DNA of 64,000 nucleotides from a bacterium (GCA_037200965.1 JBBCGK010000001.1:640001-704000), one strand, 5' to 3'. Positions 3,287 to 28,709 are shown, counted from the first letter of the stretch. Numbers and translations: made by a program. The notes: generated by a model not told the origin, from the letters alone.

Positions 3287-3337
3287 TCGGTATATCAAAA
3301 TATAAATATTTGATATGCGTCCGGCTACGATCCGGAT

Positions 3338-4831
3338 GTGATCATTCTTCTTGTCGTATCGGGCGGACTTGCAGGCGGCATATTTCTCCGGTCGTTCGCT
3401 GTGTTTGGCTGGCCCCCGTATGTCTTCGCGCTCCTGCTTGCGCTTATCGGAGCGGCCGCTTGGCGGGTAGCGGGCCGGAAGGAGTATCTTCTGTTCGTTC
3501 TGTTTCTTGCGTGCGCCGTACTGGGAGCGTGGCGGTTCTCGATCGCCGAAAAGCCGCTGCCTCCTTCGTTCCTCGCTCAGGTCGGACAGCGCGTACAGTT
3601 TGAAGGCATTGTTGCGTCCGATCCGGACGTGCGCGAAGCGAACCAGCGCGTGATAATCGACGTAGAGCAGGGCGGGGAGAAGACGCGGGTGCTCGCGGTC
3701 GCGAGCCGCTACAGCAAAGTCGGCGTCGGAGACAAGGTGGAAGTATCCGGAACGCTCGCGCTTCCCGAACCGTTCAGTACCGATACTGACGGCGGCCGCA
3801 TGTTCCGGTACGACAAGTTTCTCGAGAAAGACGGGATCAGGTTCCTTTCGGATTTCGCCTCGGTTGCTGTCATAGACCCGGCACCGTGGTACCACCCGTC
3901 CGCGCTTCTCGCGAACACCAAGCACGCCTTCATTGATGGACTTGGCCGGGCGATACCCGAACCGTATGCGACGCTCGCGGCCGGTCTTATCGTCGGCGGA
4001 AAACAGGGCCTTGGGAAAGAGCTGCTCGAAGCCTTCATTCTTTCCGGTCTCGTGCCGATCGTCGTGCTTTCCGGATACAACGTGATGATCGTGGCCGAAG
4101 GAATCATGCGCGCCTTGAAAACGATGCGAGTGCCGTCCCGCGCGTCCGCAATTGCGGGAGCTGTCGCGGTTTTATTGTTCGTACTTATGGCCGGCGCCGG
4201 TTCCGCGAGCATCCGCGCGGGACTCATGGCGCTCATCGCGCTCTATGCCCGGGCTACGGGCCGGTCATACGCGGCGGGGCGCGCACTAATCGTTGTCGCG
4301 ATCCTTATGGTTCTATGGAATCCGTATCTTCTCGCGTTCGACCCTGGCTTCGGGCTTTCGATCGCCGCGACCGCAGGGCTTATCTGGCTCTCGCCGCTGA
4401 TCGAGCTTCGGCTTATATGGATTGCGAGTGATTTCTGTCGAAGCATGCTCGCGACGACGCTCGCCGCGCAGGCCGCGGTCTTGCCACTCCTCCTCTATGA
4501 AACGGGAATGCTCTCGCTTGTCGCGATTCCGGCGAATCTTGTCGTGCTGCCGATGATTCCCCTAGCGATGGCCGCCTCCGCGGTCGCAGCCGTTTCCGGC
4601 ATGTTTCTTGGCGTCTTGGCACCGGTCTTCGCGTTTCCCGCGTATCTTCTGAATGCTTATATCGTCGAGGTCGCACGGTTCTCTTCCGGGCTTCCTTTGG
4701 CCGCGCTCCATATTCCACCGTTTCCTCTCTGGCTTATGGTACTTGCGTATGCCGTTCTGATTTTGTTCGCCCGGTACATATGCAAAGCCCCCGTGGGCGT
4801 GTACGCCCGCGGAGCCTTATCCGCTCCTTGA
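3338..4831 (+). CDS. comEC: ComEC/Rec2-like competence membrane protein (N-terminal DUF4131 plus competence TM region; lacks MBL domain)
   Basis: typical ComEC N-terminal TM topology and DUF4131-like segment; GTG start. Confidence 0.65.
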   Translation: MIILLVVSGGLAGGIFLRSFAVFGWPPYVFALLLALIGAAAWRVAGRKEYLLFVLFLACAVLGAWRFSIAEKPLPPSFLAQVGQRVQFEGIVASDPDVREANQRVIIDVEQGGEKTRVLAVASRYSKVGVGDKVEVSGTLALPEPFSTDTDGGRMFRYDKFLEKDGIRFLSDFASVAVIDPAPWYHPSALLANTKHAFIDGLGRAIPEPYATLAAGLIVGGKQGLGKELLEAFILSGLVPIVVLSGYNVMIVAEGIMRALKTMRVPSRASAIAGAVAVLLFVLMAGAGSASIRAGLMALIALYARATGRSYAAGRALIVVAILMVLWNPYLLAFDPGFGLSIAATAGLIWLSPLIELRLIWIASDFCRSMLATTLAAQAAVLPLLLYETGMLSLVAIPANLVVLPMIPLAMAASAVAAVSGMFLGVLAPVFAFPAYLLNAYIVEVARFSSGLPLAALHIPPFPLWLMVLAYAVLILFARYICKAPVGVYARGALSAP

Positions 4832-4836
4832 TTTTG

Positions 4837-5430
4837 TCACCGCGCCGCGTCCGTAAAGCGCTTCTCGATAACCGCCCAGTTGAGATTTTCGAAAAAGGCG
4901 TCGATGTAGCTTTTCTTTTCCGCCGGAACATAGTCCACCATATACGCGTGTTCCCAGAGGTCGAGCGCGACGATGACCGGAAGCCCCGACAACTGACCGA
5001 GCTCGTGGTCGCCGACGAAGGTCGTATGGAGCTTCTTTGCGGCGGGATCGAAATACACGACGACCCAGCCGATGCCGCGCGTGGCGGCGACCGCTTTCAT
5101 GGTTCCGGCGATTCCGGCTTCCCCGTACTGCTCGAGCGCGAGTTTCGAGAGCGCGCTCCCTTCGTCCGGGGCGCATGGCTTTTCTTCGAACTGGCTGAAA
5201 TAGTATTCGTGCATGCGCATGCCGTCGAACTCGAACGCGAAGCGGCGGCGCATCTCCGCTACGGCGTACTTGCCGCCTTCATCGTCCGTCTTCTGGTATG
5301 CGGCGATCATGTCCGTGATCAGATTCGCATGCTTTACATACCCCTCGTACAAGGCGAGGTGTACCTTGACCTGCTTTTCCGATATTCCCTTAAGCGCCGG
5401 AAGATCGAATTGTTTTGCGGTGTATGGCAT
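4837..5430 (-). CDS. sodA: Fe/Mn superoxide dismutase
   Basis: LPALKGISEKQVKVH, DLWEHAYMVDY Fe/Mn-SOD signature; start at ATG 5430. Confidence 0.85.
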   Translation of the reverse strand: MPYTAKQFDLPALKGISEKQVKVHLALYEGYVKHANLITDMIAAYQKTDDEGGKYAVAEMRRRFAFEFDGMRMHEYYFSQFEEKPCAPDEGSALSKLALEQYGEAGIAGTMKAVAATRGIGWVVVYFDPAAKKLHTTFVGDHELGQLSGLPVIVALDLWEHAYMVDYVPAEKKSYIDAFFENLNWAVIEKRFTDAAR

Positions 5431-5539
5431 ATGGGGAGAGTCTAGCACGGAGGGCTGCTAAATATTTGGTGAAAGAAGGACCTTGCGCAGGATACCGATT
5501 GTGGGAGAATGAGGCACAAGCTAAAGATACCTATAACCT

Positions 5540-5734
5540 ATGGAAACTATGCCAAATCAGGGGTCTCGAGATGAGAAGTTGACCGCCGAAGACGAAGCTG
5601 TCGCCAAGAAACTCCTCGCAGAAAGCGAGGCCGATATCCATCAGCGCGCGCTTGAAGCCGTGGAGTCAAATGCAAAGCTCGCCTATGACCGGGAAACGGG
5701 CACGATAATTAATCCCGAGGCTAAGCTCGGATAA
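5540..5734 (+). CDS. small hypothetical protein (64 aa)
   Basis: ORF followed by hairpin terminator. Confidence 0.3.
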   Translation: METMPNQGSRDEKLTAEDEAVAKKLLAESEADIHQRALEAVESNAKLAYDRETGTIINPEAKLG

Positions 5735-5755
5735 TTTGCACTTGCGGTAAATTGT

Positions 5756-5790
5756 AAAGGGCACCACAGCGGGTGCCCTTTGCCTTTTCT
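5756..5790. terminator. hairpin (GGGCACC-ACAGC-GGTGCCC) plus T-rich tail, possibly bidirectional
   Basis: perfect 7-bp GC stem followed by TTTGCCTTTTCT. Confidence 0.5.
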
Positions 5791-5805
5791 GAGGAGGCGT
5801 TGTGT

Positions 5806-6024
5806 TCAATGCAACGTCGGCGTTTCGCTGTGCGACAGGGCTTCGAGATGATTTTCACGAGCGCCGTCCCTCATGGCGCGAAGCATGGTGGCCATTTTCC
5901 CCGTGTTAAGGCCGCAGTACGCAGAAAGCTTTGCAAACGTCTGCGGCCCGGGGTAATAATCTCGGAGAATTTCCTCGAGTTGCCGATCCTGGGCGGCAAG
6001 CTTTTCGTTTTGTGCCGTATCCAT
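5806..6024 (-). CDS. small hypothetical protein (72 aa)
   Basis: ORF only. Confidence 0.25.
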   Translation of the reverse strand: MDTAQNEKLAAQDRQLEEILRDYYPGPQTFAKLSAYCGLNTGKMATMLRAMRDGARENHLEALSHSETPTLH

Positions 6025-6115
6025 GAGCTACCCTTCCCATTCATTAACCCGAGTTACCATACCACAGTATGATTAGAAGCGCAGGTTTTCCGCTTTATAA
6101 CCCTATACTGAGCGT

Positions 6116-6973
6116 ATGTCGGATGGTACCAAGTATTTTGTATGGCTGCTGGCCTCCCTTGCGGCTGCTAACGCGTTTCTCGCGTATTCGGCCCTTCGGA
6201 CGCTTCCGTCCGTTCTCACAATTTCATTCCTCAGTGTCGGCGCGGGAGAAGCGATCCTTGTACAAAGTCCCGCGGGAGCCGACATTCTCATCGATGCCGG
6301 GCCGGACGCGTCAATACTTCGCGCGCTCGGAACCGAGCTCGGCCCTTTTGATCGGACGATCGACGCGATACTCGTGACGCACGGAAGCGCCAGCGCGATA
6401 GGCGGTCTTTCCGATGTCTTCAATGACTATCAAGTCCGCTCGTTCTTCTCTTCGGGGGTGAATTATCATTCTTTCGCCGAGGAGGTGTTACGGGATGCAC
6501 TGAAACATGAGCAAGGATTGCAAACCGTCACGCTTGCGCGCGGCGAGCGTATCGATATCGGAGGAGGCGCCTATATCGACGTGCTCTATCCCGACCGGGA
6601 CGTATCGGGAGTCGATAGCGACACCGCCTCGCTTGTACTGCGTATCGTATACGGTGAAACGTCGTTTCTTATCACCGGTGCCGCCCCGTCGGGCGTCGAA
6701 GAATATCTGGTACGGCTCGATGGTGCGCGCCTTAAAAGCGGTGTGCTTCTTGCGGGGGACAGCGGCAAGAAAACCTCGACTTCGGCTACTTTTCTTTCGG
6801 CGGTGCATCCCGATACGGTCGTGATCTCGGTGGATACAGGCAACCGGTTCGGATATCCTCATCAGGAAACGCTCGACCGCATTGTTACGGAGGGCGCAGC
6901 CATAGCGCGGACGGGAGACGGCTCCGTGCGGTTCGTAAGCGACGGGAATACCGTACGGCTTGAAAGCCGATAG
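6116..6973 (+). CDS. ComEC C-terminal-type metallo-beta-lactamase domain protein (degenerate THxSAS motif), N-terminal signal/TM
   Basis: ILVQSPAGADILIDAG, ILVTHGSASAIGGL, MBL fold typical of ComEC C-domain encoded as separate gene. Confidence 0.6.
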   Translation: MSDGTKYFVWLLASLAAANAFLAYSALRTLPSVLTISFLSVGAGEAILVQSPAGADILIDAGPDASILRALGTELGPFDRTIDAILVTHGSASAIGGLSDVFNDYQVRSFFSSGVNYHSFAEEVLRDALKHEQGLQTVTLARGERIDIGGGAYIDVLYPDRDVSGVDSDTASLVLRIVYGETSFLITGAAPSGVEEYLVRLDGARLKSGVLLAGDSGKKTSTSATFLSAVHPDTVVISVDTGNRFGYPHQETLDRIVTEGAAIARTGDGSVRFVSDGNTVRLESR

Positions 6974-7944
6974 GTACTTAATATCGCACTAACATATCGA
7001 ACACTCTTGCAGTCGAGCATACGGCGTCTTGAGCTCGATGCCAAGGTGCGGCCGTTCGTGGTTGTATTCGCGCAGAAAGGCCTGATACTGGGCATTGAGG
7101 TCCTCCATTGAAGCGGGCTTTTTCATGAAGCGCCAGAAGAACTCCTCCTCGTCGGTGCGGAATGACCGCTCGATGACCGCGTTCTCATTCGGGTTCGCCT
7201 TGTGGATGAAATGATGCTTCCAGCCGAGTTCCCCAGTCACGAAGGCGCGGAAGCGGCTCTGGAACTCAAGGCCGTTGTCGGTCTGCACGAAATCCGGTAC
7301 GAACGGCAGCGAAACCGTCCGCAGGGCCTCGATGGAGAAGTCCTGCACGAGCTCGGGGAAGATGACGCCAGCTTTGTATCGGCTCCAAATATCAATGACG
7401 GCATACAGATACAGGGTATGCGGGAGCCCCGACAGCTCGGGCGTCACGTACTTCACATCCATCTGAAGCTTCCCGGGCGCGGTCACGTTCTTGAGATACA
7501 TATGCGTGGTCTCCTGATATCTCGGCCGTCGGTATGACGCGCCTTCCAGTATATGACCTTTCGCTTTGAGGAAGCGATGGATGGTCGCCGGGTGCTCGGA
7601 GAGGCCGAGCAGCACTTTGAGCTTGCGCGCCCCGTATCCTTTCTCTTCGCGCAGGCGCAAGAGCGCCTCAGCCCGCTCTCCCGAGAGCGTCCTGCGGCGA
7701 AGACGCTTCGGTCTTGTCGACTTGCGGACAAGCTGCCGCGTCGAGAGCGCAAACCGGCTCCGGATGCTCCGGGCTCGCTTCTTCCAGAACACCACCGTGC
7801 CCGGAGATATGCCGAGTGTCCGTGCGGTTTCGCGCACCTTTCCTCCCGACTTCTTCAATTTCCTGATGATTTCCCTGGGTTCTTTGCGCATATCCTCCTT
7901 AGTATTAGGGAGTGTTCGATATGCAGTGCGACCTTAAGTAGGTA
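6973..7944 (-). mobile_element. IS481-family insertion sequence (~970 bp) with ~34-bp imperfect terminal inverted repeats
   Basis: left end GGTACTTAATATCGCACTAACATATCGAACACTC (6973-7006) vs right end GAGTGTTCGATATGCAGTGCGACCTTAAGTAGGT (7910-7943); single DDE transposase inside. Confidence 0.75.
6989..7891 (-). CDS. IS481-family DDE (rve) transposase
   Basis: N-terminal HTH, integrase core with DNG..E (TDNGLEF), C-term ERPHLGIELKTPYARL; stop lies in terminal IR. Confidence 0.85.
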   Translation of the reverse strand: MRKEPREIIRKLKKSGGKVRETARTLGISPGTVVFWKKRARSIRSRFALSTRQLVRKSTRPKRLRRRTLSGERAEALLRLREEKGYGARKLKVLLGLSEHPATIHRFLKAKGHILEGASYRRPRYQETTHMYLKNVTAPGKLQMDVKYVTPELSGLPHTLYLYAVIDIWSRYKAGVIFPELVQDFSIEALRTVSLPFVPDFVQTDNGLEFQSRFRAFVTGELGWKHHFIHKANPNENAVIERSFRTDEEEFFWRFMKKPASMEDLNAQYQAFLREYNHERPHLGIELKTPYARLQECSIC

Positions 7945-10068: not shown

Positions 10069-10458
10069 ATGATGCACATCAAATACAAGCTCGATACGTC
10101 GAAGCTCCACGGCATCGGATTATTTGCCGCCGAGAACGTACAGAAAGGACAACTCGTTTATACCGCAAGTCCGGTACTTGACCTCAACATAACGCAGGAG
10201 CAATTCGATGCGCTAAACGAATCGGAACAGCAGGAAATACGGTGGTGGGGATTCGAGGTCGAACCGGGAATCTGGCATGTCGACTTCGACGTCTCAAAAT
10301 TCATTAATCATTCCTACGATTCCACCGTGACCCAGGATCAACATACTAAAGAGGCGCATCTGATAGCGGTGCGGGATATCGAAGCGGGGGAGGAGCTCAC
10401 GCAGAATTATTTGGAATTCGAGTCCGCGGAGGATTTGCAGCGGAGAGGGATTGAGTAG
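10069..10458 (+). CDS. SET-domain protein (putative lysine methyltransferase)
   Basis: GIGLFAAENVQKGQLV, INHSYDST (NHSCxPN-like), GEELTQNY (ELxxDY-like) motifs. Confidence 0.55.
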   Translation: MMHIKYKLDTSKLHGIGLFAAENVQKGQLVYTASPVLDLNITQEQFDALNESEQQEIRWWGFEVEPGIWHVDFDVSKFINHSYDSTVTQDQHTKEAHLIAVRDIEAGEELTQNYLEFESAEDLQRRGIE

Positions 10459-11230: not shown

Positions 11231-12268
11231 TCAAGAATATATCGCAACACCCGTATCCCTCCAGAATACTTCCTCGGGCGTCAGCCCGCCATGGCGCTTG
11301 CGTGGTCGGGTATTGATGAGGCGTTCCGCTCGAGCAAGCTCCTCGTCAGAGACCAAACTCCAGTCGGTCTTCTTTGGGAAAAATCGACGGGCTAGACCAT
11401 TCGCGTTCTCGTTTGAGCCGCGCTCGCACGAGCTGTATGGATGGGCGAAGAATATATCCATGTCGAGTGCTTCTTTGACTTCTTCCCACCGCACGTTCTC
11501 CGTACCGCGGTCTCGCGTGAGCGTCTTGCGCACGCGCTTTGGAAGAGCGGAGAGCCGTTTGATGAGTGCCTCGTCGCAGACAACGGCCGTACCATCCTTG
11601 GCCTTCTCAAAGAAGGTCACACCGCTCCTGCGCTCGGTCATACTTTTGACACGGTCGGTTGATTGCCTCGACACCATGGTGTCGTCTTCCCAGTCACCGA
11701 TGCGGGAGCGTTCGTTCACCACCTCGGGACGCGCTTCGATTGAGGGCAACGCCTCATTCCGTGCCATTCTGCGGGCTTTCCTGAAGCCCTGCTTCGCACG
11801 CGCCTTGTGGCGACGTGCCAAATGCGGCCGCAGATCGGTCTCTCCGGGCTTCACCGATCCTCGGCCCTTGCGATGTATCCTGCGGTATACCTCCTGGTAT
11901 ACCGCTTCGGTTGAGATGCGCATGGAAGGGTCGTCGGGGTATTCAAGTGGCAGTCGTATATGCACTTGCTCGGGAGACCATTTCTTTTCCCGCATCTTCT
12001 CCTCGACGTACGCTTTGAGTGTTGGGGTACGCTTCATTTTTGGCGTGTTGCCTCGCTTGCCAATGCGTTCTTGCGCTTTTGCGTGTGCCGCTTCAGCTCG
12101 ATACCGCCCCATCCCTTTGCGCGGTTTCCCCGCAAGCTCGCGGGAGACCGAGCTCTTGTTGCGGCCGAGTTCCGTGGCCATGTCCGTGACGCTCTTTGCG
12201 TCCTTGCGCCATCTGACTTCGATGATGCTTCGTTCGCGGAGCGTGAACGGTCCCTTGTTTTGTGCCAT
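11231..12268 (-). CDS. IS30-family transposase
   Basis: HTH N-term, DDE core DRGTEN, C-term HPYSSCERGSNENANGLARRFFPK, LINTRPRKRHGGLTPEEVF; ATG at 12268 (the track start at 12274 is TTG). Confidence 0.85.
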   Translation of the reverse strand: MAQNKGPFTLRERSIIEVRWRKDAKSVTDMATELGRNKSSVSRELAGKPRKGMGRYRAEAAHAKAQERIGKRGNTPKMKRTPTLKAYVEEKMREKKWSPEQVHIRLPLEYPDDPSMRISTEAVYQEVYRRIHRKGRGSVKPGETDLRPHLARRHKARAKQGFRKARRMARNEALPSIEARPEVVNERSRIGDWEDDTMVSRQSTDRVKSMTERRSGVTFFEKAKDGTAVVCDEALIKRLSALPKRVRKTLTRDRGTENVRWEEVKEALDMDIFFAHPYSSCERGSNENANGLARRFFPKKTDWSLVSDEELARAERLINTRPRKRHGGLTPEEVFWRDTGVAIYS

Positions 12269-12315: not shown

Positions 12316-12690
12316 ACTTAGGAGCAGCTTCTAAGTACCGGTACACCGAATACGCTTGCCGAGACTGAACAACGCGAAGCGGTCTGGAAAGCCTTGCGAC
12401 GCAGATACTCGGATCCGCAAGAGCAGGCATCTCTGCATACAGAACTCGACAAGTTTGTATTCGCGGTACACACCGTATGTCTTCATGGGGATATCAAGCT
12501 CGCGAATATGATGGTAGACGGAGAAGGCACCATCTACCTTATCGACTTTGGACAGTCGATAGACATGAACGCCATGAACGACAAAGCCCGCGAGCAGTTC
12601 GAGAATTTACAGGTTCTCGAACGCGACCAGGTTAAATTCTGCATTCGCTCACTCCTTGACGGCATAACGCGCCCAAAGCCCACTGTTTAA
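12316..12690 (+). pseudogene. protein kinase-like gene, C-terminal fragment (catalytic loop HGDIKLANMMV, DFG)
   Basis: frame open from 12322 (after a TAG at 12319), continues the kinase fold: LHGDIKLAN...LIDFGQS. Confidence 0.6.
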
Positions 12691-15311
12691 TCTTGAAGGT
12701 ACGGGAACCGTACCTAGTGGACCTCATCTCCAAGCTAAGATACGATCCCGAGAATACGCGCAGCAAACGTAAAAGCTTCTGCCAAATCGCTTTTAGCCAA
12801 AATACGAATTGACGGAAGGCGGTATCGTCAAACGCCCCATAAACGGACGCGGTTTGCGTTTGACGAACCACGTTCGCAGTTCCTGCACGTTCCTGTCTTT
12901 GAATCGGCGTATTTTCGATTGGCATTGATTTTATTTCTTGGGCAACGAGCGCAACTTCTTTGCGCGCTGGATTGACCACCGGACTTCCGGGAATAAGCGA
13001 AATCGCTGTTGTCGCCGTCGCGTGGGAAGCGGCACTTTCGGAAGAACGCCTGCCAACATCCGATACGGAAGACGTCGTAGTCGGCTGAAGCGAATTAGCG
13101 GAATATGGTACTGCCTCACCAAGCCGCGGAGTGATCTCGATATCGACCATGCCGTCGCCGTCTTCGTCAACTATAAGCGCGCTGGCGTGTCTCAGGTCAC
13201 CCGCAACTTTCATTGATGCTCTCGTGCGCTCGCGTACAGGCACCCCGTATATCGTGCTTGATGCGATAACACGGTCTCCTTCCTGTTCCTCAAGATCGAC
13301 CGAGAATGTTCCGGAACCGGTACCGCGAAGTTCGATTTCATAGTTCCGGCCCGCGGGGACGATACTATACTTGACCTCTCCGAATTCCCCGTACGTCGAA
13401 CCCGGAATATCCTCCCGTATCCTGCCGTCGTCGGTAAGGCCGGTGCGGCGTCCGCGCCCATCGGATACTTCGAGCGCGAGCGGGGAATGCAGAAAGAAGA
13501 GGAGTTTCTTCGCGGTCGGGAGTACGGGTTCGGTCGTGACGATCGAAGCCGGTGTTTCTTCGGTATTTGTAAGGATGCTCTCGATGAAAGCGCGCACGTC
13601 CGGATGCTCGAAGATGGTTCCGTGGTCGCTGTCGCTTCCTGCGAGATCTATCCAGTATTTCCTTGCTCCCGTATCCATCATGAGCGCGCTTATGCTCGGC
13701 ACGACGCCGTCGCCTCTGGGGGTGAAGAGCGGACGATATTCGCGAAGCGCGGGAGTTTCGGCACCGATAGGCCCGGCGAACGTGCGGGGGAGCGTATAGA
13801 AGTCGATACCGGAGACCGTTGAATCGACGCCGAAGCCCGCGAGCTCGTAGACGGCCGTGCCCGCGGGCGGCTGCCATGCGTCGATCGAGTCGTGCGTGGC
13901 GGAAGCATAGGCAAGAAGCGATTCGTTCGCATTATTCGCGGAGAGAAATTCCGCGAGTTCGTCTTCGCGGTTGAGAATTTCTCCATACGCATCTTCTTCC
14001 GCCGCATACGCCTCTCCTTCGAACTGTCCTACGGGGAGATCGGAGTCGCTAAAGTACGCCTCCGAAGGCAGGAGGTGGTATGCCATCGGCGCGTTCTGCG
14101 CGAATTCGCGCGCCGCGTCGGCGGAGACCACCGGAACGATGCCGTTAAGCGCCGCGATGCCCTGGTTGAGCCCGTAGAGGAGCGCGCCGACCGCTCCCGG
14201 CGCGCCGCTTTGCGGTACCCCGACAAGAATGACCTTGTCGATAAGCCGGGCGGTTTCCTCGCCTCCGAGCTTTTCCATGAGCGCTTTCGCGACCAGGCCG
14301 CCGTTGCTGTGCGCGATGACCGTCACCCGTCCGCTCTTTGATGTCGCCGCAAGCGAATGAAGCGTCTGTTCTATATACGGGGTGCTCGTCGCTTCTTCAT
14401 AGAAGATCATTCCGTCGCGCAGGGTGCCGTGTTCGATAATGTCCGGAAGCGACAGGCGCCAGTCGTAGGCGGCAGCTTTCCAGTCGCGTATCGTTCCCGC
14501 GCTTTTGAGCGCATCCATTTCATCCATGAAAGAGGCGTAGAAACGGTTGCCGTCGGCTTCGTCGATAACATCGCTTTCTTTGGCGTACAGATCGCTCCGC
14601 GCACTCTTTCCCGCGCCGTTAAGCGACAAGCTTTTCATCCGCTCGTTACCGATCCCGCCGAGAATATCGGCGATCGAATCGTTTTCCCCGATCGACCGGT
14701 TCCCAAAGCTTTCCTTCGGGTCCGTAGAGACGGCTGCCCTCGATGCCGGGAAGGAACAAGACATTCGATACTCCCGGCAGGGGAGGAGGCTCGGGGGTAT
14801 CCGGCTGCTTCACGGCTATCGCGGTGCTTGTCGCGGTTGCCATATACCCGGCCTCGTCCTCGACTGTCACCACCGCAACGACTGCCGCCGCATCCGGGCC
14901 AAGCGCGGGAATATTCATGGGTATGTTCTCAAGCGCTACGACGCCCTCTTCCGCAAACGCGCCCGTCATGGAATGAACCTGGCTCGCGATCGGTCCGTGA
15001 TACGCGCCGCTCCGGTCTATCGCGTACTGATAAATGATTGCGGACTTGAACGGAGAGAAAGTATCGTGCGCGAATCCTGCCAACATCGCACCCCACACGA
15101 TGCCGGGCTCTATCTCGCGGCCGTTCGTCGTATGGAAGTCGGTCAAAGTGACGGATATATCCGGCGTGGAAGTTGCGGCTGCCTCGACAGAGATTGCTTC
15201 AAGGGACAGGCTATCGGGCGAAGTGGCTTCCTCGGCATGCGCGGTAGCCGCAAAACCGCAAAGGAACAGCATGACTGACGCATATAACAGACCGCGCAAG
15301 AACATTCGCAT
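12632..15311 (-). CDS. secreted LCAT/PGAP1-like alpha/beta-hydrolase (lipase/acyltransferase), apparently frameshifted near 14650-14760
   Basis: signal peptide and LFLPGIEGSRLY in the 14646..15311 ORF; YDWRLS and lipase box IAHSNGG in the 12632..14764 ORF; the two ORFs overlap in different frames. Confidence 0.5.
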
Positions 15312-16564: not shown

Positions 16565-17029
16565 ATGCGACGTCCTCTTAAAAAGAAGCGAACCTGGCGC
16601 CCCGACCTCAAGTACGGATCGGAAGGCCTTGAGCGTTTCGTAAACGCGGTCATGTGGGACGGAAAGAAAGATACCGCCCGCGCGGTCGTCTACGGCGCGC
16701 TTGAGAAGGTAAAGGAGAGCGGCGCAGACCCGCTTGAGACGTTCGAAGCGGCTATCAGGAACGTCTCTCCTCTTATGGAAGTCCGCTCCCGCCGCGTCGG
16801 CGGCGCGAACTATCAGGTGCCGCGCGAGGTTCCCCAGCAGCGCCGTCTCGCGCTTTCCTATCGCTGGATTATCGGCGCTGCCCGCTCGAAGAAGGGCAAG
16901 CCGATGGCCGAGAAGCTCGCCGAGCAGCTCGTCCTCGCCGCAAAGAACGAAGGCGACGCCATCAAGAAGAAGGATGACATGCACCGCATGGCGGAGTCGA
17001 ACAAGGCATTCGCGCACTTCGCGTGGTAG
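16565..17029 (+). CDS. rpsG: 30S ribosomal protein S7
   Basis: S7 sequence, follows rpsL by 5 bp. Confidence 0.9.
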   Translation: MRRPLKKKRTWRPDLKYGSEGLERFVNAVMWDGKKDTARAVVYGALEKVKESGADPLETFEAAIRNVSPLMEVRSRRVGGANYQVPREVPQQRRLALSYRWIIGAARSKKGKPMAEKLAEQLVLAAKNEGDAIKKKDDMHRMAESNKAFAHFAW

Positions 17030-17744: not shown

Positions 17745-18845
17745 GCCGGATTGCCGCAACTTGCACAAGTTCAGATACATATGGCACTCCTCCTAACTGA
17801 GGAGCGATGCGTCAATTCAACATACTGAAGGATACCGAGGGCTGGTTGTATATGCGCGAGCGGAGCATACGCTTCCTGCATATGAGGAACAACGACGAGG
17901 TGCGGCATCGGGTCAAGGTGCTGGACTTCTGGAAAACGCACGGGGAGCGTGCGGCCAGGGACGCCTTCAGCGTCTCTCGCCGCACGCTCTTCCGTTGGCA
18001 GGCGAAGCTCGACCGCGCGCACGGGAGACTCGACGCGCTCGATCCCAAGTCGACGGCACCGAAGAATCGGAGGAGACGCATCGTCCTCCCCGAGGTCGAG
18101 ACGTTCATCCTGAAGGAGCGCGCGGAGCATCCGAGGCTCGGCAAGGCGAAGCTCGCAGCCCTGCTGCGGGAGGACGGGTACCGGGTATCCGAATCGTATG
18201 TCGGGAGGGTCGTCGCGGACCTCAAGAGGAGAGGGCTGCTGCTCCCGCACAAGCCGCTCTCATACTATGCGCGAAGCGGCACGTATCGGGAGAAGCCCGT
18301 ATCGAAGCGCACGAAGCTGCGCAGGCGGCACAAGCGGGGCATGGAGCTCGACACCGTCGTCCGCTTCATCGACGGCGTGAAGCGGTACGTCCTGACCGCC
18401 ATCGATGTCGAGAAGAAGTTCGCCTTCGCCGGCGCGTATACCGTCCACTCCTCCGCGTCCGCCGCCGATTTCCTCGCGCGCGTCATCGCGGTGTGCCCCT
18501 TCGACATCACGGAGCTCCAGACCGACAACGGCCCGGAGTTCGCCAAGAACTTCGAGGCGGGGTGCCGCGCCCTCGGCCTCACCCACTTCAATACGTTTCC
18601 CCGCAGCCCGAAGATGAACGCGTTCGTCGAGCGGTTCAACCGGACGATCTCGGAGGACTGCATCATGCTCAATCGGCCGCTCCTGCGGGACGACGTCGCG
18701 GCATTCAACCTGAAGCTGGTCGACTGGCTGCTCTGGTACAACGCCCGGCGTCCGCACGAGTCCCTGGGACAGGTGCCGCCGCTCCGGTATATACTCTCCT
18801 CATTAACGGCCGAGGAGTGCCAGAGGTACTGGACGCGTACGCCTG
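17745..18845 (+). mobile_element. IS481-family-like insertion sequence (second, divergent copy); right end abutted by IS30
   Basis: upstream end CATATGGCACTCC...CTAACTGAGGAGCGATG resembles the IS at 6973-7944; the C-terminal ECQRYW segment is homologous to the ECSIC-stop IR of the first copy; approximate boundaries. Confidence 0.55.
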
Positions 18846-18850
18846 AACCC
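17807..18850 (+). CDS. IS481-family DDE (rve) transposase (ORF in the track reads through to 19003 into the adjacent IS30)
   Basis: HTH N-term, TDNGPEF, SPKMNAFVERFNRT, RRPHESLGQVPPLRY; no stop codon before the IS30 junction. Confidence 0.7.
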
Positions 18851-19849
18851 CACTCTAACTGCAACACTCACTTCCTCAGAAATATCGAGCGCGGTGATTC
18901 GAATTTCAGACGCTTGCGCGGCCGGTCATTGAGCTTCTTCACCACATGCGCCAGCTCCTCAGGGGTGATCAGGTTGAAGTTGAGCGAACGAGGAAAGTAC
19001 TGACGCAGGAGTCCGTTGGTATTCTCGTTGGTACCACGCTCCCAAGGACGGTGCGGGTATGCGAAGTACACGGTTGCCCCGCTCTTCTTCCCGAGTCGCT
19101 TCCAGTCGGCAAATTCTGGACCGTTGTCGAGCGTGATGGTCTTGCGTTTGGCACGCGGAATATGACGGAAGCGTGCGAGCGCAAGCGACGTGAGGAGCTC
19201 GGCGCGCATCTTGGGCAACAAGTATGCAACCAGGTATCCGCTCCTGCGATCCACAAAGGTGACAATGCGGACTCGCTTGTCGCTGCCTTGCACCGTATCG
19301 CCCTCCCAGTCGCCGAGCCGGCTTCGTCGTTCAATAATCGTTGGACGGTCATCAATACGCTGCTTCTTGGCCGCTTCACGAGCCTTCTCGCGTATTTTGG
19401 TACCGCGCCTGCGACGGTATTTGCCTTTGGATGATCTGAGGAACTGCTTCAGGTGCGGAGCACGCTCCTCAATATATCGGTATATGGTGCTGGCGGAGAC
19501 TGCACCCGTCACCCCTTCAATTTGCTCAGGAGAGTGGTGGTCTTTGAGCATACGCACCACCGTGCGCAAGAGCGCACCCTTGAGCACGCGAATACTGTCC
19601 ATTGCAGCAATGCGTTTCAGCTTCTTCTTTCTGCGTACTTCGCGTACATCATATCCCTCACGTCCGCCGTATTCGTTCACATGACGAGAGATCGATCCTG
19701 CATCCTTCTCAAGCGTACGTGCGATCTCTCGGATCGCGTGTCCTGCCCGCAGCATGCGGGCAATCACCGGCCAGTCTCCTGGCCCAATCTGGGTATGTGC
19801 CATATCCAGAGAGTGTGGAACCCAAAAGAGCTGTTGCAATTAGCCTGCA
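18846..19849 (-). mobile_element. IS30-family insertion sequence (second copy, different lineage)
   Basis: ends CTAACTGCAACAC (18855-18867) and CTGTTGCAATTAG (19831-19843) inverted; same architecture as IS30 at 11231-12315. Confidence 0.65.
18868..19803 (-). CDS. IS30-family transposase
   Basis: DDE core, YFAYPHRPWERGTNENTNGLLRQYFPR, LNDRPRKRLKFESP. Confidence 0.85.
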   Translation of the reverse strand: MAHTQIGPGDWPVIARMLRAGHAIREIARTLEKDAGSISRHVNEYGGREGYDVREVRRKKKLKRIAAMDSIRVLKGALLRTVVRMLKDHHSPEQIEGVTGAVSASTIYRYIEERAPHLKQFLRSSKGKYRRRRGTKIREKAREAAKKQRIDDRPTIIERRSRLGDWEGDTVQGSDKRVRIVTFVDRRSGYLVAYLLPKMRAELLTSLALARFRHIPRAKRKTITLDNGPEFADWKRLGKKSGATVYFAYPHRPWERGTNENTNGLLRQYFPRSLNFNLITPEELAHVVKKLNDRPRKRLKFESPRSIFLRK

Positions 19850-20549: not shown

Positions 20550-22697
20550 ATGAACCGCGACTACCCGCTTGAGAAAGTCAGGAACTTCGGAATCATCGCC
20601 CATATCGACGCCGGAAAGACCACCACGTCCGAGCGCATTTTGTATTACACCGGTTCCCAGCACAAAATCGGCGAGGTGCACGACGGAGAGACCACGACCG
20701 ACTGGATGGAGCAGGAGCGGGAGCGCGGCATCACCATCACGGCCGCCGCCATCACCTCCTTCTGGACCCGCACCAGCGAGCCGGACAAGAAGGACGTTTC
20801 GAAAAAGTTCCGCTTCAACATCATCGACACGCCGGGACACATCGACTTCACGGTCGAGGTGAAGCGGTCCATGCGCGTCCTTGACGGCGCGGTCGTCGTT
20901 TTCGACGGCGTCGCGGGCGTCGAGCCGCAGTCGGAGACCAACTGGCGCTATGCGGACGAGGCCAATGTGCCGCGCCTCTGTTTCATCAACAAGCTCGATC
21001 GCACGGGCGCATCGTTCGAGTTCTCCTATAAGAGCATTCTCGACCGCCTCTCGAAGAAGGCCGTGCGCATGCAGATCCCGGTGGGAGAGGAAGACCAGCA
21101 CGAAGGCGTCATCGACCTCCTTTCCATGAAGGCTTTCACCTTCACGGGCAACATGGGCGACATCGTGACCGAGGGAGAGATCCCGGCGAACCTCCTTGAG
21201 GACGCGAAGAAATACCGCGCAGAGCTCATCGAGCGGATCGTCGAGCACGACGAGGCGGCGATGAGCGCGTATCTTGAGGGCAGGGAGCCCGAAGTGGCGG
21301 AGCTTAAGACGATTCTCCGCAAGGCCGTGATCGCGAACGCGATCTTCCCGGTCTTCACCGGTTCCGCGCTCAAGAACAAGGGCGTGCAGCTCGTGCTTGA
21401 CGCCGTCGTCGACTATCTCCCGTCGCCTCTCGACATGCCGCCCGTCAAAGGCATCAACCCGAAGACCGGCGAGGAGGTCGTCCGCAGGGCTTCCGACGAC
21501 GAGCCGTTCACCGCGCTTGCCTTCAAGCTCCAGACCGATCCGTTCGTCGGTGCCCTTACGTTCTTCCGCGTCTATGCGGGAACTTTGACCGCAGGCTCGT
21601 ACGTATACAACTCGACGACCGGCAGCAAGGAGCGCGTCGGCCGCATCGTGCGGCTTCAGGCTGATAAGCGCGAGGAAGTGGAGAAGGTGTTCGCGGGAGA
21701 GATCGCGGCGGCCGTAGGTCTCAAGGACACGAAGACTGCGCACACGCTCTGCGACGAGGCGAATCCGATCATCCTCGAGACTATCAAGTTCCCGGAGCCG
21801 GTGGTATCGCTTCGCATCGAGCCGAAAACCAAGGCCGACCAGGAGAAAATGGGCATGGCGCTCAAGAAGCTCTCCGACGAGGACCCGACCTTCCGCGTCA
21901 CCTCGGACGCCGAAACCATGGAGACCATCATCTCGGGGATGGGCGAGCTGCATCTCGAGATTCTGGTCGACCGCATGCAGCGGGAGTTCAACGTGGGCGC
22001 GAATGTCGGGAAGCCGCAGGTGGCATACCGCGAGACGGTGCTCGGCGCGTCCGATGCCGAAGGCAAGTACATCAAGCAGACCGGCGGCAAGGGCCAGTAC
22101 GGGCATGTGAAGATCAAGATGAAGCACCTCGAGCCTTTGGACCCTGAAGCGAAGATTCCGAAGAACGTCACGCGCGAAGCCAATTTCGAATTCATCAACA
22201 ACATCAAAGGCGGCGTGGTGCCGGCTGAGTTCATCGCTCCCGTCGAGAAGGGTATCCGCGAGTCGATGGCGCGCGGCATTCTCGCGGGCTTCCCGGTCGT
22301 CGACATCTCCGTCGACCTCTACGACGGTTCGTACCACGACGTGGACTCCTCGGAAATCGCCTTCAAGATCGCGGCATCGATGGCCTTCAAGGAAGCCGCG
22401 ACCCGCGCGAAGCCGGTGATTCTCGAGCCGATCATGAAAGTGGAGGTGGTGGTGCCGGAGAAGTTCATGGGCGACATCACGGGGAACCTCTCCGGGAAGC
22501 GCGCTTCGATCGAAGGCATGGAAGAGCGCGGCATGAACAAGGCGGTGCACGCCAAGGTGCCGCTCTCCGAGATGTTCGGGTATACGACGACGCTGCGCTC
22601 CATGACCGAGGGCCGCGGCTCCATGACCATGGAATTCGACCACTACGAAGTCGTGCCCCAAAACGTCGCGCAGGACATCATCGCGAGCAGGAAGTAG
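20550..22697 (+). CDS. fusA: elongation factor G
   Basis: [16 protein letters not shown]-domain, domains II-V; 715 aa. Confidence 0.95.
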
Positions 22698-26885: not shown

Positions 26886-27734
26886 ATGAAATCCTATCGC
26901 CCGACCAGCAAGAGCCGCCGTGCCATGACGACGCTCCCGTACAAGGAGCTCCTTTCCGGCGCGAAGCCGCATAAGCCGCTCATGGGCTCGAAGAAGCGCC
27001 AAGGGGGCCGCAACAACGCGGGCCGCGTGAGCGTCCGGCACCAGGGCGGCGGGCACAAGCGCCTCTATCGCGACGTCGATTTCAAGTACGACAAGAAAGG
27101 AATCCCGGCGAAGATCGAGACCGTCGAATATGATCCGTATCGCTCGGGCTTCATCGCGCTCGCGCTCTATGCCGACGGCGCCCGCCGCTACGTGCTCGCG
27201 CCCAAGGGTCTTTCGGTCGGCGATTCCTTCATCGTCGCCGAGGATGCGCCGCTTAAGAGCGGCAACCGACTCCCGATCGGGAAGATTCCCGTCGGCACCT
27301 TCATCTATAACGTCGAACTTCGCCCGGGCGCAGGCGCGCTTCTCGCCCGTTCTGCGGGAAACTACGCGGAAGTGGTCGCGCACGACCAGGGCTATGCTCA
27401 GGTTAAATTGCCGTCGACCGAAATCCGCAGGGTGTCCGATCTTTGCTGGGCTTCGGTGGGTTCGGTGGGGAACGAGGAATACAATCTCGTGAACCTCGGT
27501 AAGGCGGGCCGCTCGCGCTGGCTTGGCATCCGCCCGACGGTTCGCGGTACGGCCATGAACCCGGTCGACCATCCGCATGGCGGCGGCGAAGGAAGGCAGG
27601 GCCGCGGACTCAGGAGGGCGAAGAGCGCCTGGGGCAAGCCGACCGGCAAAGGCCAGAAGAGCCGCACGCCGAAGAAGTACTCGAACGTCTTCATCGTCTC
27701 GAGGAGGAAAGTCGGGAAGAAGAGGAAAGGATAA
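26886..27734 (+). CDS. rplB: 50S ribosomal protein L2
   Basis: L2 motifs GGGHKRLYR, RNPVDHPHGGGEG. Confidence 0.95.
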   Translation: MKSYRPTSKSRRAMTTLPYKELLSGAKPHKPLMGSKKRQGGRNNAGRVSVRHQGGGHKRLYRDVDFKYDKKGIPAKIETVEYDPYRSGFIALALYADGARRYVLAPKGLSVGDSFIVAEDAPLKSGNRLPIGKIPVGTFIYNVELRPGAGALLARSAGNYAEVVAHDQGYAQVKLPSTEIRRVSDLCWASVGSVGNEEYNLVNLGKAGRSRWLGIRPTVRGTAMNPVDHPHGGGEGRQGRGLRRAKSAWGKPTGKGQKSRTPKKYSNVFIVSRRKVGKKRKG

Positions 27735-28668: not shown

Positions 28669-28671
28669 GAA

Positions 28672-28700
28672 AAAGCCCCGCCAGACCGGCGGGGCTTTTT
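28672..28700. terminator. bidirectional hairpin terminator GCCCCGCC-AGACC-GGCGGGGC flanked by A- and T-runs
   Basis: 8-bp GC stem with AAAAA upstream and TTTTT downstream. Confidence 0.55.
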
Positions 28701-28709
28701 CTTTCCGGC

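What the first reader, a model, noticed from the sequence alone, without database searches (positions are those of the whole stretch)
3338..6973. ComEC encoded as two separate genes flanking sod
3338-4831 encodes the DUF4131 and competence-channel part and stops before any MBL domain. A separate gene at 6116-6973 encodes an N-terminally anchored MBL-fold protein with the degenerate ComEC-type motif (THGSAS instead of HxHxDH). Between them lie sodA (opposite strand) and two small ORFs. An IS481 element starts at the nucleotide after the MBL-domain gene stop. Split or degenerate ComEC is a feature reported for reduced-genome uncultivated lineages and raises the question of whether the DNA-uptake channel is functional.
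Basis: partly seen in the sequence, partly recalled or inferred. Interest (0 to 1): 0.5.

Follow-up and report, generated by a model that had tools for sequence, protein, structure and literature searches.

The report
Split ComEC with dead nuclease subunit
In this candidate-phyla-radiation bacterium the DNA-uptake protein ComEC is encoded as a conserved channel gene plus a separate membrane-anchored nuclease-like gene that has lost its metal-binding residues, and related genomes carry this second gene in intact, dead, truncated and deleted forms.

Summary
3338-4831(+) encodes a 497-aa ComEC with the OB fold and channel domain and no MBL domain. 4837-5448(-) encodes an Fe/Mn-type SOD. 6116-6973(+) encodes a 285-aa protein with one N-terminal TM helix and a ComEC-type MBL fold. 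An IS481-like element (6977-7938) lies just after it.

The two ORFs tile fused ComECs. The break falls between TM10 and TM11, so ORF2 corresponds to TM11 plus the nuclease domain.

The split is neither recent nor caused by the IS. The order comEC-N | sod(-) | MBL appears in about 76 of 85 related Paceibacteria/Kaiserbacteria loci. The IS's 6-bp target duplication (TAGGTA) contains ORF2's stop codon, so ORF2 is not truncated.

ORF2 has lost essentially every active-site residue but keeps the scaffold. It models at pLDDT 95 and evolves under purifying selection.

Across relatives the partner gene is intact (8 loci), full-length but dead (6, including this window), truncated to 150-250 aa (42), or deleted (about 24). 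The channel gene stays highly conserved throughout.

The channel is probably functional without its own nuclease. ORF2 is most likely a non-catalytic accessory subunit on a path towards loss. This is a new variant of a known kind, of moderate interest.

The parts
3338..4831 (+). comEC-N, the channel subunit. It has three N-terminal TM helices (aa 2-70), an OB fold/DUF4131 (aa ~85-180) and the Competence domain (aa 217-480, nt 3986-4777). It ends after the helix equivalent to TM10, with no MBL domain.
   Evidence: Pfam and NCBIfam. PDB phmmer hit to ComEC 30bt_A residues 146-489. AF2 pLDDT 81 with 3 helices, a beta domain and a helical bundle. BLASTP to fused ComEC P0248 residues 85-486. More than 1400 homologues, the top 120 all about 497-500 aa with the same two domains.
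4837..5448 (-). Fe/Mn-type superoxide dismutase gene, convergent with comEC-N (5-nt gap). It is the conserved intervening gene of the split.
   Evidence: Pfam Sod_Fe_C E 8e-16; NCBIfam SOD models below cut-off. A homologue sits directly downstream of comEC-N on the opposite strand in about 76 of 85 related loci, often overlapping its 3' end by about 70 nt.
5449..6115 (.). Genome-specific spacer. It holds small unsupported ORFs (5540-5734 +; 5806-6024 -), a strong hairpin plus T-run (5754-5783) and a sigma70-like promoter match (6044-6073) about 43 nt upstream of ORF2.
   Evidence: No family hits. Terminator-like and promoter-like consensus matches only. In relatives the sod-MBL spacer is 38-62 nt (L005, L001) or holds an HTH gene (L003).
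6116..6973 (+). ComEC C-terminal module as a separate gene. It has a TM anchor (aa 9-27, nt 6140-6196), equivalent to TM11 of fused ComEC, followed by an extracytoplasmic MBL fold. It is catalytically dead: motif II at aa 88-97 (nt 6377-6406) reads THGSASAIGG, and Q43A, D45E, D189A, H215D, H216S, S218K and H247Y are also substituted. Loop 2 is retained as N243-R-F-G-Y-P248 (nt 6839-6862).
   Evidence: NCBIfam TIGR00361 positions 440-659. PDB hits are ComEC only. AF2 pLDDT 95.1, pTM 0.90. Foldseek top hit 9ic4. Alignments A1 and hmmalign. BLASTP aa 10-285 to P0248 residues 528-808, TM helix included. dN/dS 0.11-0.30.
6977..7938 (-). IS481-like insertion sequence (962 bp) with transposase 6989-7891(-), inverted repeats of 30 and 29 nt, and a 6-bp target-site duplication TAGGTA at 6971-6976 and 7939-7944. 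It inserted immediately 3' of ORF2 without altering its coding sequence.
   Evidence: NF033577 transpos_IS481 E 2.5e-42 (145 bits, below the 224 cut-off); rve, rve_3 and HTH domains. Inverted repeats I3 and I6. Exact TSD and reconstructed empty site. Single copy in the window.

Best explanation
This is a two-gene ComEC.

Shown:
- ORF1 carries everything that forms the ssDNA channel in solved ComEC structures: TM1-3, the OB fold and TM4-10.
- ORF2 is the homologue of TM11 plus the beta-lactamase-like nuclease domain.
- The break lies in the TM10-TM11 cytoplasmic loop.
- The two genes are separated by an opposite-strand sod gene.
- This order is ancestral to a large Paceibacteria/Kaiserbacteria lineage.
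- In the window's sub-clade ORF2 has lost essentially all metal-binding and substrate-binding residues, while the structural scaffold is kept and the gene remains under purifying selection.
- In sister clades the same gene is intact, truncated or deleted, while comEC-N stays conserved.

Inferred:
- ORF2 cannot be a metal-dependent nuclease.
- It is inserted N-in/C-out, so the dead MBL fold sits outside the membrane on the same side as in fused ComEC.
- It probably still docks at the channel entrance as a non-catalytic accessory. It would act as a DNA guide or strand-separating 'pin' through the retained loop-2 motif R244-F245-G-Y247, equivalent to Legionella R688-F689-x-F691.
- The channel subunit is probably functional on its own. 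The non-imported strand would be displaced or degraded by another enzyme.
For: Homology and tiling. In the exhaustive search, fused ComECs of 740-824 aa align to ORF2 from about residue 8-10, so the anchor helix is included.

Structural logic of the break: in the cryo-EM ComEC, TM4-9 line the channel. TM10 and TM11 are peripheral, and TM11 is mobile. The MBL domain hangs on a flexible linker and is positioned only by a weak interface with the OB fold (PMC13539106).

Antiquity: the synteny RecJ-RNaseH-comEC-N-sod(-)-MBL-L28(-)-M50 appears in L001, L003, L005, L086 and L087 and across the 80 species-representative genome loci from the GTDB-based collection.

The IS is irrelevant: the TSD contains the stop codon.

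Dead active site: 11 or more columns that are 95-100% conserved in intact relatives are replaced, whereas Gly/Pro/Leu scaffold columns are kept. AF2 gives pLDDT 95.1.

Selection: dN/dS for the MBL gene is 0.11-0.30 in the dead clade, against 0.10-0.24 for comEC-N. For truncated remnants with unsaturated dS it is 0.20-0.22, against 0.08-0.11.

Clade-structured states: NJ tree of comEC-N.

Coupling: in L013, L021 and L031 sod is absent and the remnant's start overlaps the comEC-N stop.

Loop 2 is the best-kept motif among dead variants, N-[RK]-[YF]-x-Y-P in 10 of 12. The Legionella F689A/F691A mutant abolishes transformation (PMC12455585).

Precedent: the S. pneumoniae CTD is possibly inactive and retained as a DNA guide (PMC8579336). 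The DC-type ComEC occurs in 14 of 51 competent strains (PMC6299819).
Against: No physical or co-expression evidence links the two proteins. The conserved gene order extends to unrelated housekeeping genes, so adjacency may reflect only collinear genomes.

Sister clades truncate the gene, removing loop 2, or delete it, so whatever ORF2 does is dispensable in the long run. Two close relatives (P0003, P0012) already carry internal or C-terminal deletions.

In L. pneumophila, catalytic-residue mutants abolish transformation. A dead MBL is therefore not generally tolerated unless another nuclease exists, and none was found in the 64-kb window.

dS is saturated (1.2-3) within the window's clade, so its dN/dS values are approximate.

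The direction of the event, fission versus never-fused neighbours, was not resolved.

The mapping of loop 2 to Legionella residues rests on a constant residue offset anchored at one published residue pair, not on an alignment containing the Legionella sequence.
Confidence: 0.5

Rival explanations
1. ORF2 is a relic with no role in DNA uptake. After the nuclease became dispensable, the gene began a slow decay (dead, then truncated, then deleted). The window simply samples an early stage, and ComEC-N works alone like other DUF4131+Competence ('DC') ComECs.
For: The series intact/dead/truncated/deleted maps onto clades of the comEC-N tree. Relative dN(MBL)/dN(comEC-N) rises from about 1.0 in the intact clade to 1.3-1.8 in the dead clade and 2-3 in truncated remnants. 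P0003 and P0012 carry deletions. The DC profile is common among competent bacteria.
Against: dN/dS is about 0.1-0.3, not about 1, and there are no frameshifts or stops. Scaffold residues are selectively kept while only active-site columns are lost. Remnants of about 165 aa persist across a large, deeply diverged clade of streamlined genomes. Such genomes normally purge useless DNA (general knowledge).
Confidence: 0.3
2. ORF2 has been re-purposed for a function unrelated to ComEC. It would act as a surface-exposed binding protein or scaffold on the MBL fold, and its proximity to comEC-N is only inherited synteny.
For: Purifying selection without catalysis. ORF2 has its own promoter-like site and is separated from ORF1 by an opposite-strand gene and a terminator-like hairpin. 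The whole neighbourhood is collinear, including unrelated genes.
Against: The retained motif is precisely the ComEC loop 2. In three loci the remnant is translationally coupled to comEC-N. No new domains or motifs were gained.
Confidence: 0.12
3. The whole DNA-uptake system is defunct in this organism, and both genes are decaying.
For: No comEA, comFC, dprA or pilus genes were found in the 64-kb window. The nuclease is dead.
Against: ComEC-N keeps all invariant columns of a 26-sequence alignment with 65% mean column identity, and its dN/dS is 0.10-0.24. The window covers under 7% of a 960-kb contig, so the absence of other com genes says little. com and T4P genes are reported as near-universal in this phylum (PMC13293708, PMC10633639).
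Confidence: 0.06
4. The split is an artefact or a recent lesion: a mis-assembly, a frameshift, or an IS481-mediated rearrangement of a once-fused gene.
For: An IS lies directly next to ORF2, and two more transposase genes are in the window.
Against: The same three-gene order occurs in about 76 independent assemblies. The IS has an intact 6-bp TSD, and the reconstructed empty site leaves ORF2's stop untouched. ORF2 has its own start and TM anchor, conserved in about 140 of the 150 nearest cluster representatives.
Confidence: 0.01

Closest known systems
Canonical three-domain ComEC/Rec2 (OB fold - competence channel - beta-lactamase-like nuclease), e.g. Neomoorella carbonis ComEC (PDB 30bt) and B. 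subtilis ComEC
   Same: ORF1 and ORF2 together cover the same domains in the same order, and each aligns to the matching part of 30bt_A (residues 146-489 and 533-789). The predicted topology is the same: OB fold and MBL outside the membrane, three TM helices before the OB fold (PMC13539106).
   Different: There are two polypeptides from two transcription units with an opposite-strand sod gene between them. The H-x-D-x-D-H motif, the bridging Asp, HHGS and the motif-V His are all substituted. Neither ORF reaches the TIGR00361 equivalog cut-off (66.8 and 70.2 bits against 190).
'DC'-profile ComEC (DUF4131 + Competence, no Lactamase_B) of Pimentel & Zhang 2018
   Same: ORF1 has exactly this profile. 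The profile occurs in 14 of 51 experimentally competent strains (PMC6299819).
   Different: Here the 'missing' domain is not absent from the genome. It is encoded 1.3 kb downstream as its own membrane-anchored protein. That survey scored only domains on the Competence-containing protein, and its text contains neither 'separate' nor 'split'.
Streptococcus pneumoniae ComEC, whose CTD has substituted metal ligands, working with the separate membrane nuclease EndA
   Same: It carries an MBL module that is probably catalytically impaired yet retained. [quoted passage not shown]
   Different: The pneumococcal CTD is still fused and has conservative changes (Asn for His, Glu for Asp, Asn for Asp). 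ORF2 is a separate protein with radical changes (Ser, Ala, Lys, Tyr). No EndA-like gene was seen in the window.
Stand-alone membrane-anchored ComEC-type MBL proteins of Patescibacteria, annotated 'MBL fold metallo-hydrolase', 'beta-lactamase superfamily II metal-dependent hydrolase' or 'competence protein ComEC'
   Same: ORF2 belongs to this family. About 140 of the 150 nearest 50%-identity cluster representatives are 215-326 aa with the same N-terminal helix. P0011 and P0019 sit in the same synteny.
   Different: 110 of those representatives keep all catalytic motifs. ORF2 and about 13 others have lost them.
Helicobacter pylori ComEC (no MBL domain, no EndA homologue)
   Same: A competent organism whose ComEC lacks its own nuclease (PMC12455585, introduction).
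   Different: H. pylori has no MBL partner described. Here a dead partner persists.

Membership tests
ComEC/Rec2 (TIGR00361; Pfam Competence PF03772) | Competence (channel) domain | tested here: met
   ORF1 aa 217-480, PF03772, E 7.5e-40, 137 bits against a cut-off of 23. TIGR00360 ComEC_N-term, 70.5 bits against 36.5.
ComEC/Rec2 (TIGR00361; Pfam Competence PF03772) | N-terminal OB fold (DUF4131 PF13567) preceded by TM helices | tested here: met
   PF13567, 49 bits against 31.6. The AF2 model shows three helices followed by a beta domain at aa 85-180. Foldseek gives only weak OB-fold matches.
ComEC/Rec2 (TIGR00361; Pfam Competence PF03772) | Full-length equivalog: all three domains on one polypeptide, score at least 190 bits | tested here: not met
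   ORF1 scores 66.8 bits (model positions 69-358) and ORF2 scores 70.2 bits (positions 440-659). They are two genes 1.3 kb apart with sod(-) between them.
ComEC beta-lactamase-like nuclease domain (as in PDB 9ic4) | MBL alpha-beta/beta-alpha fold most similar to the ComEC CTD | tested here: met
   AF2 pLDDT 95.1. Foldseek top hit 9ic4, E 8.6e-23, TM 0.75/0.80, 28% identity; the next hit is Pce at 1.3e-13. All PDB phmmer hits are ComEC chains.
ComEC beta-lactamase-like nuclease domain (as in PDB 9ic4) | Metal ligands H-x-D-x-D-H (H598, D600, D602, H603), bridging D700, and H725/S728 | tested here: not met
   ORF2 has H89, S91, S93, A94; A189 in place of the bridging Asp; D215, S216, G217, K218 in place of HHGS; and Y247 in place of the motif-V His. 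Residue roles are taken from PMC12455585.
ComEC beta-lactamase-like nuclease domain (as in PDB 9ic4) | Metal-dependent DNase activity | not testable with these tools
   Requires protein biochemistry. The sequence predicts no activity.
ComEC beta-lactamase-like nuclease domain (as in PDB 9ic4) | Loop 2 'pin' with Arg and two aromatics (Legionella R688, F689, F691) | tested here: inconclusive
   ORF2 has R244-F245-G-Y247 at the position obtained by a constant residue offset anchored on the published equivalence of Legionella S662 with Moorella S728, together with the gap-free alignment to 30bt/9ic4. No Legionella sequence was aligned directly.
Pfam Lactamase_B / Lactamase_B_2 | Score at or above the gathering threshold | tested here: not met
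   22.4 against 22.7 and 25.9 against 27. The shortfall is marginal and is expected after loss of the conserved motifs. The precomputed annotation lists PF12706 for P0001.
IS481 family insertion sequence | DDE (rve) transposase with N-terminal HTH, terminal inverted repeats, short target duplication | tested here: met
   rve, rve_3 and HTH domains. Inverted repeats of 30 and 29 nt and a 6-bp TSD TAGGTA. The NF033577 score of 145 bits is the best family hit but is below the 224 equivalog cut-off, so the element is 'IS481-like'.
Fe/Mn superoxide dismutase | N- and C-terminal SOD domains at curated thresholds | tested here: inconclusive
   The C-terminal domain PF02777 is met (58 bits against 20.9). 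The N-terminal domain is not detected, and the NCBIfam SOD equivalogs score far below cut-off (74 against 300). The D-x-W-E-H-A-Y ligand motif is visible in the translation.

The most novel reading that the evidence does not exclude
A large CPR lineage preserves a stepwise natural 'deletion series' of the ComEC nuclease module: split off with TM11, then catalytically killed, then cut to a roughly 165-aa stub, then deleted. The channel subunit stays under strong constraint throughout. If the channel still imports DNA in all these states, ComEC-mediated uptake does not intrinsically need ComEC's own nuclease. The dead and truncated forms would then identify the minimal non-catalytic part of the CTD that the channel needs: the TM11 anchor with the first beta-sheet, and loop 2 in the full-length dead forms. 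This bears directly on the open question of how CTD-less ComECs handle the non-transforming strand.
Probability: 0.3. Interest if true: 0.65.

Novelty: new variant of a known kind. Interest (0 to 1): 0.45.

Why it matters
Silale et al. (PMC8579336) note that almost half of ComEC proteins 'lack' the nuclease CTD, and that how those organisms deal with the non-transforming strand is open.

This locus shows that, at least in Paceibacteria/Kaiserbacteria, 'CTD-less' is partly an annotation effect. The CTD with its own TM helix is encoded in trans nearby. Domain surveys that look only at the Competence-containing polypeptide therefore under-count it.

The locus also offers an evolutionary experiment on the CTD, with intact, dead, truncated and absent states on a conserved channel background. 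Structural and genetic work on ComEC could exploit it, and it is relevant to whether CPR bacteria use ComEC for transformation or for nucleotide scavenging.

For annotating this genome the practical result is simple. The channel gene looks functional. The MBL gene should be labelled a non-catalytic ComEC C-terminal-domain homologue, not a hydrolase or beta-lactamase.

Tried and rejected
1. IS481-mediated disruption as the cause of the split. Rejected: the TSD includes the stop codon, and the same gene order is found in about 76 other assemblies.

2. Foldseek of the ORF1 model against PDB. Uninformative: the Foldseek library (up to April 2026) apparently lacks the full-length ComEC entries. Only weak OB-fold matches appeared, none with E below 1e-3.

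3. Metagenome scan for closer relatives of ORF2, to obtain unsaturated dS. Only relatives at 42% identity or less were found, so dN/dS within the window's own clade stays approximate. Closer pairs from the truncated clade were used instead.

4. A remote-homology search for an MBL remnant in the 'none' clade. hmmsearch --max with a remnant profile gave nothing better than E of about 2.5. The ORF after sod there is about 210 aa, the size of the window's 214-aa M50 peptidase gene; this identity is inferred from size and position, not scanned. The MBL gene therefore appears truly deleted.

5. Other competence genes in the window. Pfam scans of about 40 ORFs found none. The window is mostly the ribosomal-protein, SecY, Adk and Map cluster, plus MFS transporters and methyltransferases. 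A regex for type IV pilin N-termini found none.

6. Rfam and tRNA scans of the window gave no hits.

7. PHROGs, Pfam and NCBIfam searches on the small ORFs between sod and ORF2 gave no hits.

8. A literature search for a prior description of split ComEC found nothing.

9. Direction of the event (fission or pre-fusion state). Not resolved. The nearest fused ComECs lie on 2-3 Mb contigs, one is named Chloroflexota, and no rooted tree was made.

Full report
WHAT IS THERE.

The ORF list confirms the four genes at the coordinates given:
- 3338-4831(+), 497 aa
- 4837-5448(-), 203 aa
- 6116-6973(+), 285 aa
- 6989-7891(-), 300 aa

Pfam and NCBIfam assign ORF1 to DUF4131 (aa 24-169) plus Competence (aa 217-480). 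It matches positions 69-358 of the 663-position ComEC_Rec2 model TIGR00361.

ORF2 matches positions 440-659 of the same model (E 1e-19). Its best non-ComEC NCBIfam hit scores 28.8 bits. Its Pfam Lactamase_B scores fall just under gathering.

The middle gene has an Fe/Mn SOD C-terminal domain. The last is an rve-type transposase closest to IS481.

Exact copies of both ComEC parts exist in public data on a 960,259-bp contig of a 'MAG: bacterium'. ORF1 is named there 'ComEC/Rec2 family competence protein' and ORF2 'hypothetical protein'. The relatives are Kaiserbacteria, Parcubacteria, Paceibacteria and Minisyncoccota MAGs.

IS ORF2 REALLY THE COMEC C-TERMINAL MODULE?

Yes, by sequence and by structure.
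- Against all PDB sequences its only six hits are ComEC chains. They include the Moorella glycerini beta-lactamase-like domain 9ic4 (E 1.6e-19) and residues 533-789 of the 801-aa ComEC 30bt_A.
- ORF1 hits residues 146-489 of that same chain.
- An AlphaFold2 model of ORF2 is very confident (pLDDT 95.1, pTM 0.90). It shows an N-terminal helix (aa 2-27) followed by an MBL sandwich.
- The model's best PDB structural match is 9ic4 at E 8.6e-23. The next match is the phosphorylcholine esterase Pce at 1.3e-13.
- Against one fused 808-aa ComEC (P0248), ORF1 aa 85-474 aligns to residues 85-486 and ORF2 aa 10-285 aligns to residues 528-808. The ORF2 alignment includes the TM helix.

In the cryo-EM ComEC, 11 TM helices are present and TM4-9 surround the channel. 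TM10 and TM11 are peripheral, a short cytoplasmic helix lies between them, and TM11 is mobile. The nuclease domain is held by a flexible linker and a weak OB-fold contact (PMC13539106).

The break in this window therefore falls between TM10 and TM11. ORF1 keeps the whole channel, and ORF2 is TM11 plus the nuclease domain. That is a structurally benign place to cut.

HOW OLD IS THE SPLIT, AND IS THE IS INVOLVED?

The contigs carrying the three closest ORF2 relatives show the same order: RecJ, a small ORF, RNase H, comEC-N, sod on the opposite strand, MBL, L28(-), M50 peptidase.

I then fetched 80 loci from species-representative genomes of the GTDB-based collection, using a comEC-N alignment, and scanned them with local HMMs.
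- A sod homologue lies directly after comEC-N on the opposite strand in about 76 of 85 loci. It commonly overlaps the 3' end of comEC-N by about 70 nt.
- Two more distant stand-alone MBLs (P0011 at 42% identity, P0019 at 39%) sit in the same block. A third, P0024, from a 1.28-Mb contig, does not.

The arrangement is therefore ancestral to a large lineage.

The IS is a later, local event. Its inverted repeats define the element as 6977-7938. It is flanked by a perfect 6-bp duplication TAGGTA. The left copy contains ORF2's TAG stop, so removing the IS restores ...CGA TAG GTA TTG... and leaves ORF2 unchanged. No second copy is in the window.

THE ACTIVE SITE IS GONE BUT THE SCAFFOLD IS KEPT.

Most stand-alone relatives keep D-V-G-Q-G-D, T-H-P-D-x-D-H-I-G-G, T-G-D, G-H-H-G-S and N-x-Y-G-H-P. 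The motif H-x-D-x-D-H is the ComEC version. In M. glycerini, H598, D600, D602, H603 and D700 bind Mn2+, and H725 and S728 contact substrate (PMC12455585).

ORF2 reads S-V-G-A-G-E, T-H-G-S-A-S-A-I-G-G, T-G-A, G-D-S-G-K and N-R-F-G-Y-P. Only the first His survives.

A column-by-column comparison of 16 degenerate and 20 intact sequences gives this pattern:
- Columns 95-100% conserved in intact proteins and part of the active site are lost in the degenerate set. These are Q43, D45, D91, D93, H94, N169, D189, K212, H216, S218 and H247.
- Structural Gly, Pro, Leu, Tyr, Arg and Asp columns stay at 86-100%. These are G42, G54, G62, R80, D83, G97, Y105, G143, G151, G180, L206, P232, N243, P248, T266, D276 and G277.

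That is the signature of a pseudoenzyme rather than random decay.

Within the window's clade (window, L005, L003, L001):
- dN/dS of the MBL gene is 0.11-0.30.
- dN/dS of comEC-N is 0.10-0.24, of sod 0.05-0.12, and of recJ about 0.05.
- dS is saturated (1.2-3), so these are rough, but dN of 0.27-0.39 is far below neutrality.

THE WIDER SERIES.

In the 85 loci the partner gene is in one of four states:
- intact and full-length in 8 loci;
- full-length or nearly so, but with all motifs lost, in 6 unique loci, including the window;
- reduced to 150-250 aa in 42 loci, keeping the TM helix and the first 110-200 profile positions, with a conserved V-G-K-G-x-A ... L-T-S-x-K-x-x-x-G-G-L pattern and no His/Asp ligands;
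- undetectable in 28 loci, about 24 of which have enough downstream sequence to be informative. There, sod is followed by an ORF of about 210 aa, the size of the window's 214-aa M50 peptidase gene (identity inferred from size and position, not scanned).

On a neighbour-joining tree of comEC-N the states are clade-specific. Intact forms are basal, there are two dead full-length clades, one intact locus (L008) lies between them and the rest, and then come a large truncated clade and a monophyletic deleted clade.

For close pairs with unsaturated dS, the truncated remnant has dN/dS of 0.20-0.22 against 0.08-0.11 for comEC-N. Even the stub is constrained.

In L013, L021 and L031 sod is absent and the stub's start overlaps the comEC-N stop, which suggests translational coupling.

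Meanwhile comEC-N has 65% mean column identity over 26 sequences.

An exhaustive phmmer search of 1.84 billion cluster representatives found 37,568 relatives at E of 1e-3 or better. The 150 best are about 140 stand-alone proteins of 215-326 aa and 10 fused ComECs of 721-824 aa. Of the stand-alone ones, 110 are intact and about 13 are clearly degenerate.

MECHANISM.

Shown: homology, the position of the split, its antiquity, loss of the ligands, retention of the fold, and purifying selection.

Inferred:
1. ORF2 is not a metal-dependent nuclease.
2. It inserts with the MBL fold outside the membrane, as in fused ComEC.
3. It probably still associates with the channel.

The best candidate for a retained role is loop 2. 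In L. pneumophila, R688, F689 and F691 lie on a loop at the channel mouth, proposed to split the duplex and steer the 5' strand. The F689A/F691A mutant abolishes transformation. Using the published equivalence of Legionella S662 with Moorella S728 and the gap-free ORF2 alignment to 30bt, those positions correspond to ORF2 R244, F245 and Y247. The motif N-[RK]-[YF]-x-Y-P is kept in 10 of 12 degenerate relatives. This mapping uses a constant residue offset anchored at that one pair, not a direct alignment.

Silale et al. made the same suggestion for the possibly inactive pneumococcal CTD.

Three observations count against a lasting role:
- The truncated forms lack loop 2, and a whole clade lacks the gene.
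- Legionella catalytic mutants are non-transformable.
- No substitute nuclease was seen in the window.

My estimate is about 0.5 for 'non-catalytic ComEC accessory subunit', 0.3 for 'functionless relic en route to loss', and the remainder for re-purposing or a defunct system.

IS THE CHANNEL FUNCTIONAL?

Probably. ORF1 holds TM1-10 and the OB fold, is strongly conserved, and has the DC profile found in 14 of 51 experimentally competent strains. comEC is required for transformation in a cultivated patescibacterium (PMC10633639). No other com or pilus gene lies in the 64 kb, but that is under 7% of the contig.

NOVELTY.

MBL-less ComECs, a possibly inactive fused CTD and stand-alone ComEC-like MBL proteins are each known or annotated. 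I found no description of three things:
- the conserved comEC-N | sod | TM11-MBL arrangement;
- the recognition that 'CTD-less' ComECs of this lineage have the CTD in trans;
- the intact, dead, truncated and deleted series.

I file it as a new variant of a known kind. Interest is 0.45.

Noticed in passing
window 27752-29495 (-), between rplB (26886-27734) and rpsS (30258-30608): An IS1595/ISXO2-like transposase gene (27752-28591) and a DUF3298 protein gene (28710-29495) lie on the opposite strand inside the otherwise contiguous S10 ribosomal-protein operon, between L2 and S19. That is an unusual place for an insertion. The L2 and S19 gene names are read from the translations and gene order, not from a family scan.
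   Followed up: partly
window 17807-19003 (+): A second rve-type transposase (398 aa; HTH_32 + rve + rve_3), only 28% identical to the IS481-like one, sits between rpsG (S7, 16565-17029) and fusA (EF-G, 20550-22697). Relatives have other variable genes at this position. The S7 and EF-G names are read from the translations and from the annotated relative L003.
   Followed up: partly
related loci L006-L085, junction of comEC-N and sod; window 4831/4837: In most relatives the convergent comEC-N and sod genes overlap by about 70 nt at their 3' ends. In the window they are 5 nt apart. The last 14 residues or so of ComEC-N are low-confidence in the model.
   Followed up: no
L013, L021, L031 (about 11,440-12,020 in each locus): In these three Kaiserbacteria-like loci sod is missing, and the roughly 165-aa MBL remnant starts within or at the comEC-N stop codon (overlaps of 4, 4 and 43 nt). 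This suggests translational coupling of the channel gene and the stub.
   Followed up: partly
window 5449-6115: A 667-nt spacer between sod and the MBL gene is specific to this genome; relatives have 38-62 nt or an HTH gene there. It holds two small ORFs without family matches and a 12-bp-stem hairpin with a T-run at 5754-5783.
   Followed up: partly
window 3290-3320: An AT-rich near-palindrome (ATATCAAAATAT A AATATTTGATAT) lies in the 51-nt gap between the RNase H gene and the comEC-N GTG start. It could be a promoter or operator. It is absent from L003, where the gap is only 11 nt.
   Followed up: no
window 46634-48022 (+): A second MBL-fold protein (462 aa) with Beta-Casp and RMMBL domains, an RNase J/CPSF-like RNA-processing nuclease without a membrane anchor. 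It keeps its motifs by Pfam score and is unrelated to the ComEC CTD.
   Followed up: no
window 10069-10458 (+) and 12632-14764 (-): A 129-aa SET-domain protein and a 710-aa LCAT-like alpha/beta hydrolase. The LCAT-like gene is also present near the locus in relative L003.
   Followed up: no
P0248 (808-aa fused ComEC from metagenomes): This fused ComEC, among the closest to ORF2 (37% identity by BLASTP), itself has a partly degenerate motif II (T-Q-P-Q-A-D-H) and N-R-F-G-L-P in loop 2. Erosion of the CTD active site is therefore not confined to the split forms.
   Followed up: no
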